This document shows, one piece after another, positions 19,829 through 19,974 of a DNA stretch of 64,000 nt. The stretch is taken from assembly GCA_964016885.1 (NCBI GenBank), contig OZ024742.1, forward strand, positions 249,178,001 to 249,242,000, in the 5' to 3' direction. The stretch is from Eledone cirrhosa. Its lineage: Eukaryota. The position numbers and the translations under genes were made by a program. Every line of letters starts with the position of its first letter. Position 1 is the stretch's first letter. Below the pieces are notes generated by a model. That model was not told the DNA's origin and did no database searches. It saw only the letters and a program-made list of their open reading frames with translations.

Positions 19829-19843
19829 GTTTTAATATAGATG

Positions 19844-19894
19844 ACATTCTACAGAACTGGAACTGTTTCATTCTTTAGAAATCATCAGGAATCT
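19844..19894 (-). ncRNA. Type I hammerhead ribozyme (family of 26907-26957)
   Basis: rc agattc-CTGATGA-tttctaaagaat-GAAA-cag ttccagtt ctg-TA-gaatgt. Confidence 0.82.
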
Positions 19895-19974
19895 GGCTTC
19901 CAAAATAAATGTTGTGGTATTTTATATATATATATATATATTTGTGTATGTGTATGTGTGTATATATATATATA

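What the first reader, a model, noticed from the sequence alone, without database searches (positions are those of the whole stretch)
19829..19925. Ribozyme-only mini-insertions in (TA)n sharing one 3' end
Seen: 19829-19925 (~95 bp) and 48585-48650 (~65 bp) are little more than the HHR of the longer element at 26660-27045. Both are embedded in (TA)n and both stop at ..CTATATTAAAAC(T), while the long copy continues. Most differences among the three fall in loop III and the outer edge of stem I. Unlike the other motifs here, this HHR has a real stem III, so it could cleave as a monomer. Inference: an abundant, very small mobile ribozyme unit retrotransposed in trans by Penelope RT/GIY-YIG, ending near an ATTAAA signal.
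Basis: partly seen in the sequence, partly recalled or inferred. Interest (0 to 1): 0.8.

Follow-up and report, generated by a model that had tools for sequence, protein, structure and literature searches.

The report
Ribozyme-sized offcuts of a Penelope retrotransposon
These tiny ribozyme insertions are two of about 12,000 scattered pieces of a protein-coding Penelope-like jumping gene; thousands of the pieces begin at the ribozyme's first base, likely because the copying enzyme ran off the capped start of the element's own RNA, and one piece has grown into a 377-kb ribozyme-only satellite.

Summary
The three copies are real, but the minis are not a separate mobile unit. They are pieces of a coding Hydra-clade Penelope-like element (intact 713-aa ORFs exist; about 12,000 dispersed hammerhead copies). 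The ends are not random. 3' ends fall in two classes, +60 to +67 and +131 to +137, matching the known PLE 'tail'. 46 of 100 sampled 5' ends lie in 15 nt at the first base of stem I. That base has a TATA box about 30 nt upstream, and copies starting there mostly carry an extra G (78 of 100). This points to run-off at a capped transcription start (inferred; no RNA run was available). All 41 plus 26 clean inverted pairs join one short and one tail arm, and arms share variants (40 of 40): likely twin priming on one RNA. Starts at the cleavage site are rare, and no poly(A) follows ATTAAA. Stem III is a near-palindrome predicted to prefer a dimer, so monomer cleavage is doubtful. Elsewhere in the genome a 78-bp hammerhead-only unit forms a 377-kb satellite of about 4,800 copies. 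Known kind, new mechanistic footprints.

The parts
19829..19926 (-). Mini-insertion 1: 5'-truncated piece of the PLE pLTR from the TATA box (fused to (TA)n) to the short 3' end (+66)
19844..19894 (-). Hammerhead of mini 1; G-G mismatch in stem I, and a loop III change that breaks the CUAG palindrome (likely impaired)
48585..48649 (-). Mini-insertion 2: starts at +3, inside the 5'-end hotspot; ends at the short 3' end (+67); no promoter; 4 bp of stem I left
26661..27044 (+). Long copy: solo pLTR (385 nt against 571 in the reference copy, internal deletion) with tail, ending at the second 3' end class
26823..26827 (+). CCAAT box (-84), predicted promoter element
   Evidence: CCAAT/ATTGG within 110 nt in 63 of 74 promoter-bearing copies
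26875..26882 (+). TATAAATA at -32, predicted TATA box
   Evidence: at -29 to -34 in 69 of 74 promoter-bearing copies
26907..26957 (+). Type I hammerhead; 26907 is the first base of stem I and the inferred transcription start (+1); predicted cleavage after 26951 (GUA)
26973..27044 (+). Tail: the stretch between the two 3' end classes; in coding copies it runs on into the 5' UTR and ORF
19427..19828 (.). (TA)n target flanking the 3' end of mini 1

Best explanation
The minis are pieces of the flanking repeat of a coding Hydra-clade Penelope-like retrotransposon, inserted in (TA)n, and the ribozyme-sized class likely arises when the element's reverse transcriptase primes near the 5' end of its own capped RNA and runs off at the first base of the hammerhead. 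Shown: pLTR-ORF-pLTR masters; two 3' end classes; a 5' pile-up at +1/+2 with an extra G; a TATA box about 30 nt upstream; strict short-plus-tail pairing in inverted copies, whose arms share variants; few starts at the cleavage site. Inferred: Pol II starts at +1; the endonuclease cuts both strands of (TA)n; each DNA end primes at one of two internal sites (about +67 and about +135) on uncleaved RNA; both cDNAs run to the cap and are end-joined (inverted pair), or one is joined to the target (solo mini, such as 48585). Copies that reach upstream of +1 (19829, 26661) would come from RNA holding the downstream pLTR (read-through, tandem or circular RNA). Minis that start at +1 lack the promoter and are likely dead ends.
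For: Masters: 3 of 20 fetched loci hold an uninterrupted 713-aa ORF, and 4 of 20 have hammerheads at both ends, 4.8-6.0 kb apart. The 48585 mini is 64/65 identical to them. 99 exact tail-to-5'UTR junctions. The subfamily of the long window copy does the same in 17 of 100 listed rows (by eye), with ORF pieces in 12 of 15 fetched loci. 3' ends of the first 100 hits on C1: 35 short, 62 tail, 3 between. 5' ends: 46 at -2..+13, 3 in the 15 nt before, 6 in the 15 nt after. Genome-wide, 1,845 copies break just before +1 and 2,244 just before +2, out of about 12,300 dispersed cores (less the array). Base before +1: G in 78 of 100 rows (by eye). By script on 40 of those loci: G in 30 of 35 that start at +1, including 8 of 9 with no partner arm. 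Control before +2: G 39, T 50, C 11 (by eye). An extra G marks the cap in full-length L1 insertions (PMC11702581, passage). Pairs: 41 of 43 loci short+tail, 2 with an interrupted tail, 0 same-class; 26 of 26 in a second set. Loop II variant equal in both arms in 40 of 40 pairs, chance about 0.53 each. Either arm can be the shorter, which argues against snap-back from a fixed first strand. Only 154 of 12,934 copies have a non-A before the cleavage site, and 49 of the first 100 are point mutants (by eye). This agrees with in vitro work in which a PLE initiates at two internal sites that define the tail and uses uncleaved RNA (PMC11167929, main text read).
Against: No RNA evidence for the start site, the cap or cleavage. 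A one-base fold-back of the cDNA on stem I would also give G at this position, and 25 of the 100 rows are true stem I fold-backs, so fold-back does occur. In pairs the G can be shared with the partner arm. The pattern excludes C by design. Starts at the cleavage site can hide behind TA microhomology (4 of 100 sampled copies start 2-4 nt before it). The in vitro PLE showed no strand difference between its two sites, so the strict pairing has no biochemical precedent that I saw. The samples are positional (first part of C1), and a few loci are segmental duplicates. D. virilis Penelope has a TATA-less promoter (PMC2377424, passages). No intact ORF was seen for the subfamily of the long window copy: all 12 were split or truncated.
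Confidence: 0.78

Rival explanations
1. The 5' pile-up is caused by the ribozyme's structure: RT or the cDNA folds back on stem I and stops, with no transcription start at +1.
For: The hotspot coincides with the 5' strand of stem I; a one-base fold-back gives the same G; 25 of 100 rows and a few junctions show fold-back letters.
Against: A conserved TATA box sits at the expected distance in both subfamilies and in a distant relative. The left edge is sharp (3 against 46). In 6 of the 8 solo copies with G the next base is not the T that further fold-back would template. Extended fold-backs are tens of copies against more than a thousand with G.
Confidence: 0.13
2. Variant of the best model: the template is not the coding mRNA but short transcripts from the thousands of promoter-bearing solo pLTRs, copied in trans like a SINE.
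For: About 5,000 dispersed copies keep the sequence upstream of +1 (less the array), against 99 exact 5'UTR junctions for the main subfamily. Such copies would start at the same +1.
Against: In the one PLE studied in vitro the template needed sequence downstream of the initiation sites (PMC11167929), which solo pLTRs lack. Short-ended solos cannot give tail arms. No mini-specific sequence was seen.
Confidence: 0.2
3. One reading: a self-sufficient tiny ribozyme unit (mini-retrozyme) that cleaves as a monomer, ends at an ATTAAA signal and propagates as its own lineage.
For: Ribozyme-only copies are the commonest 5' class. Head-to-tail arrays exist: 191 nt (L156), 222 nt (L158), 211 nt (L154) and the 78-bp satellite.
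Against: Minis match coding copies, lack a promoter, have two 3' ends and no poly(A), and rarely start at the cleavage site. The satellite junction was found at only one other locus; 9 of the 10 dispersed loci listed were point mutants of ordinary copies. Both window minis have damaged stems.
Confidence: 0.06

Closest known systems
Hydra clade of Penelope-like elements (Craig et al. 2021, PMC8557442; section 11, passages and supplement rows seen)
   Same: C-terminal GIY-YIG; RW[K/R], DKT, CxCX5C, CxxC and CxH motifs; no CCHH spacing; hammerhead in the pLTR; (TA)n targeting; tandem and inverted insertions; tail at one end only.
   Different: Unit is 4.8-6.0 kb (microsatellite-rich 3' UTR) against '<3 kb'; tail 66-70 nt against 30-40. 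One cephalopod family, Hydra-1_Obim (2,507 bp), is listed there; identity with this family was not tested.
PAc, Poseidon PLE of Anolis (Frangieh et al. 2024, PMC11167929; main text read)
   Same: Two internal RT initiation sites downstream of the hammerhead define the tail; both strands are cut and extended; uncleaved RNA is the main template.
   Different: Here both sites lie in the 5' UTR. The genomic pairs show one site per DNA end, and the products run off at a defined 5' end with an extra G; I saw neither in the main text.
PLE hammerheads (Cervera and de la Pena 2014, PMC4209133; parts 1-2 of 4 read)
   Same: Most motifs are single copies related to truncated PLEs; inverted pairs 100-700 bp apart; palindromic stem/loop III; dimer activity; circle model.
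   Different: Stem III here is longer (3 bp plus an 8-nt loop), and U-U replaces the usual G10.1-C11.1. No fixed 5' end or promoter is described in the parts read.
Non-LTR retrozymes (PMC7229834, passages; Li et al. bioRxiv 10.64898/2026.07.22.740005, parts 1-2 of 5 read)
   Same: Tandem type I hammerhead repeats derived from PLE pLTRs; the 78-bp unit lies in the reported 51-972 bp range.
   Different: The window minis are solo copies, not tandem. The C28 array has about 4,800 units against a reported maximum of 300 in that survey, and its birth from an inverted PLE insertion is visible at its left end.
L1 twin priming and cap-derived extra G (PMC11702581, passages)
   Same: Second DNA end primes on the same RNA; microhomology joins; extra G at full-length 5' ends.
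   Different: Here both primings are at fixed internal sites and both arms copy the same ribozyme stretch, so they overlap.

Membership tests
Penelope-like element (EN+) | Single ORF with RT and C-terminal GIY-YIG | tested here: met
   713-aa ORF with YRDD and IVY...YIG; Pfam GIY-YIG only weak, E 0.13; 1,408 homologues, the best 39-54% identical
Penelope-like element (EN+) | pLTRs, partial tandems, inverted 5' copies, tail at one end | tested here: met
Hydra clade | RWK, DKT, CxCX5C, CxxC/CxH; no CCHH | tested here: met
   RWR (RWK in 83 of 120 homologues), DKT, CxCX5C, CxxC and CxH present; CCHH-type spacing absent in the query and in 120 of 120 homologues
Hydra clade | Insertion in (TA)n | tested here: met
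   91 of 100 3' flanks
Hydra clade | Length generally under 3 kb | tested here: not met
   4,797-5,966 bp between hammerheads, owing to the microsatellite 3' UTR; a typical trait, not a defining one
Hydra clade | RT phylogeny groups with named Hydra families | not tested
Type I hammerhead ribozyme | Core CUGANGA/GAAA/NUH and three stems | tested here: met
   loop II varies while stem II is fixed, and stem I shows compensatory pairs between subfamilies; G10.1-C11.1 is replaced by U-U
Type I hammerhead ribozyme | Self-cleavage | not testable with these tools
   No assay; genomic 5' ends at the site are rare
Non-LTR retrozyme (window minis) | Head-to-tail tandem units, each with a hammerhead | tested here: not met
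   Both minis are solo
Non-LTR retrozyme (C28 satellite) | Head-to-tail tandem units, each with a hammerhead | tested here: met
   78-bp units; 166 of 403 have the core and all stems paired
Non-LTR retrozyme (C28 satellite) | Expressed monomeric or circular RNA; spread by retrotransposition | not testable with these tools
   No RNA run; one 9-unit offshoot, not in (TA)n

The most novel reading that the evidence does not exclude
The element starts transcription on the first base of its ribozyme, so one RNA has two fates. Linear capped RNA is twin-primed at two fixed sites and yields thousands of ribozyme-sized dead ends. Only a transcript holding both hammerheads cleaves as a dimer, circularises and templates full-length copies. 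One offcut became a 377-kb satellite that is processed into 78-nt self-cleaving monomers or circles.
Probability: 0.3. Interest if true: 0.8.

Novelty: new variant of a known kind. Interest (0 to 1): 0.58.

Why it matters
How Penelope-like elements make inverted repeats and one-sided tails, and what their hammerhead does, are stated open questions (PMC8557442, PMC11167929). This family gives a large fossil record with sharp, testable predictions: a start site, two initiation sites used one per DNA end, and uncleaved template. It also shows a ribozyme-only satellite whose origin from a single PLE insertion can be read at its boundary, which bears on the proposed PLE origin of animal retrozymes. 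The two window minis themselves are ordinary dead copies.

Tried and rejected
Rfam: no hammerhead family hit in the window. RNA: no RNA holder listed. Contigs of runs of unknown kind were laid; they show no start or end, but a 'goes back 77' joint led to the satellite. Poly(A)/ATTAAA model: rejected (no A tails, ends 1-2 nt after the hexamer, second end class). The GIY-YIG ORF at 19976-20830 next to mini 1 is not the master: it gives no tblastn match to the master ORF in the window. An ORF upstream in L102 belongs to another element. The dispersed matches to the satellite junction are not a mobile 78-nt lineage: 9 of 10 are point mutants. PDB search gave nothing useful. Earlier scan findings: none. 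Literature: no paper held Penelope + hammerhead + transcription start + TATA; 'Penelope, twin priming, inverted' gave 2 off-topic listings; 'octopus, hammerhead ribozyme' gave 4 listings, none on this family by title or abstract (the term came from my recalled impression of the genome, not from a call). PMC7353768 was opened and held none of the terms. PMC6765202 and other listings were seen as listings only. Supplements of the bioRxiv retrozyme preprint were not seen and may list longer arrays; subscription papers were not searched.

Full report
Coordinates. +1 is the first base of hammerhead stem I (window 26907; position 435 of the 571-nt reference copy cut from L022). Predicted cleavage is after +45, the short 3' end is +66/+67, the tail end is +131 to +137, and the ATG of coding copies is +182.

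Observation. The two minis are real, lie on the minus strand in (TA)n, and share the short 3' end; the long copy continues to the tail end. All three have a type I hammerhead core with a 3-bp stem III, unlike the short palindromes of the window's other motifs. Only three positions differ inside the ribozyme. Both minis have damaged stems, and the hammerhead fold is not the predicted minimum for any of the three 51-mers.

Family. The 3.0-Gb genome holds 12,934 exact copies of the +46..+66 21-mer, 3,705 exact short-end junctions to (TA)n and 15,147 exact cores. I took the first 100 hits on C1. 3' ends: 35 short, 62 tail, 3 between. 5' ends: 46 at -2..+13, 12 at +14..+46, 21 within the pLTR, 21 at or near its upstream microsatellite. 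91 of 100 run into (TA)n at the 3' side, with no poly(A).

Master element. Long copies lead upstream through a microsatellite-rich UTR to a GIY-YIG ORF end (L122, L128), and tails lead downstream into a 5' UTR and ORF. There are 99 exact tail-to-UTR junctions for one subfamily. Of 20 fetched, 3 have uninterrupted 713-aa ORFs and 4 have hammerheads at both ends, 4.8-6.0 kb apart. The subfamily of the long window copy shows the same continuation (17 of 100 rows; ORF pieces in 12 of 15 loci, none intact). The protein has the Hydra-clade motifs listed in PMC8557442 section 11 and shares them with most of its 120 best homologues. No tree with named families was built.

Why ribozyme-sized. 1,845 copies have a non-C just before +1 and 2,244 a non-A just before +2, together about 30% of the roughly 12,300 dispersed cores (approximate: the patterns differ in reach and a few rows are point mutants). 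Before +1 the base is G in 78 of 100 rows, A in 11 and T in 11; 7 of the non-G rows are longer copies with a point change (by eye). A script on 40 consecutive loci of that list found 5 longer copies and G in 30 of the other 35, including 8 of 9 solo copies. Before +2 there is no such dominance (G 39, T 50, C 11). TATAWATA lies at -29 to -34 in 69 of 74 promoter-bearing copies, and CCAAT/ATTGG within 110 nt in 63 of 74. A distant relative keeps the TATA spacing (L108). In L1 an extra G marks the reverse-transcribed cap (PMC11702581, passage). I infer a Pol II start at +1 and RT run-off. The rival is fold-back of the cDNA on stem I, which gives the same G; extended fold-backs exist but are rare (25 of 100 rows among 154 hits).

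Twin priming. 53 of the 100 hits have an adjacent inverted partner, at 43 loci: 41 join a short arm to a tail arm, 2 have an interrupted tail, none joins like with like. A second set gave 26 of 26, two of them local duplicates. Arms share the loop II variant in 40 of 40 pairs, so they come from one template or one source locus. Either arm may be the more truncated. This fits the in vitro finding that a PLE cuts and extends both strands and initiates at two internal sites that bound the tail (PMC11167929). The one-site-per-end rule is what these data add.

The ribozyme. Stem I has compensatory pairs between subfamilies, loop II varies freely, and the CUAG in loop III is kept in most variants. 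The stem III region is a near-palindrome: hairpin -1.4 to -2.0 kcal/mol; homoduplex -12.8 for the common form, -14.2 for the long copy and -7.6 for mini 1. A dimer is therefore the likelier active form, as for other PLE hammerheads (PMC4209133); monomer activity is not excluded. Only 154 of 12,934 copies have a non-A before the cleavage site, about half of them point mutants, so uncleaved RNA is the main template. How long copies with tails arise is open: three of the four complete masters seen stop at the short end and the fourth 7 nt before it, which a circular or tandem RNA would explain (inference).

The window copies. 48585-48649 is a solo run-off-class copy (+3 to +67; 5 of 100 sampled are of this class). 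19829-19926 reaches 30 nt upstream of +1 and is cut at the TATA box by TA microhomology, so it is an ordinary truncation (5 of 100). 26661-27044 is a solo pLTR with tail.

Tandems. Short head-to-tail arrays of hammerhead plus UTR occur (L154, L156, L158). A strand imbalance and a joint led to a satellite at G000:C28:30,496,755-30,873,730, about 377 kb. Every probe inside that span was filled with 77-81-bp hammerhead-only units, about 4,800 if continuous. Mean pairwise difference is 7.5%, and 166 of 403 units keep the core and all stems. Its left end is an inverted PLE insertion in (TA)n whose tail arm already carries the unit junction. Recurring spacings of about 9.2 kb and duplicated insertions point to DNA-level expansion. 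One 9-unit offshoot lies on C1 (L189). A recent survey reports retrozyme units of 51-972 bp and at most 300 repeats.

Verdict. Observation confirmed; interpretation partly supported. The minis are by-products of a known kind of element. The start-site, pairing and satellite findings were not found in the searches named under Tried and rejected, and they make open questions on PLE mechanism testable.

Noticed in passing
G000:C28:30,496,755-30,873,730 (L175-L184, L195-L197, L200-L209): About 377-kb satellite of 78-bp hammerhead-only units of this family, starting as an inverted PLE insertion in (TA)n; 9-unit offshoot at C1:350.20 Mb (L189).
   Followed up: yes
L197:744-1620: The satellite's right end abuts three 422-bp tandem units of another hammerhead family (the kind seen at window 41036).
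   Followed up: partly
window 22600-25900 (-): A second Hydra-type element: broken ORF 38% identical to the master over the RT, with minimal-stem-III hammerheads at 25699 and 22805, i.e. a pLTR-ORF-pLTR copy.
   Followed up: partly
window 19976-21520 (+): 5'-truncated PLE of another family (GIY-YIG PF01541, E 6.5e-5) directly beside mini 1; nested PLE insertions in one (TA)n tract are common in the fetched loci.
   Followed up: partly
window 48100-48400: Inverted pair of another hammerhead family (cores at 48207 minus and about 48336 plus).
   Followed up: no
window 41036 and 42058-43290: Hammerhead with a CTAG stem III upstream of further PLE-like ORF pieces.
   Followed up: no
window 15052-15687: 235-nt inverted repeat, 99% complementary, around (AT)n; possibly another PLE inverted pair.
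   Followed up: no
window 39556-39601 and 39632-39678: Two Rfam histone 3' UTR stem-loop matches below the gathering score (E 7.5e-5 and 0.006).
   Followed up: no
L033, L074, L102, L024: An unrelated short repeat (SINE-like by recall) is inserted inside the pLTR in several copies, twice at the same point (L033, L074).
   Followed up: no
L154, L156, L158, L153, L160, L166: Head-to-tail units of about 135-222 nt holding hammerhead or tail sequence, 5' UTR and sometimes the first codons: retrozyme-like arrays born by template jumps.
   Followed up: partly
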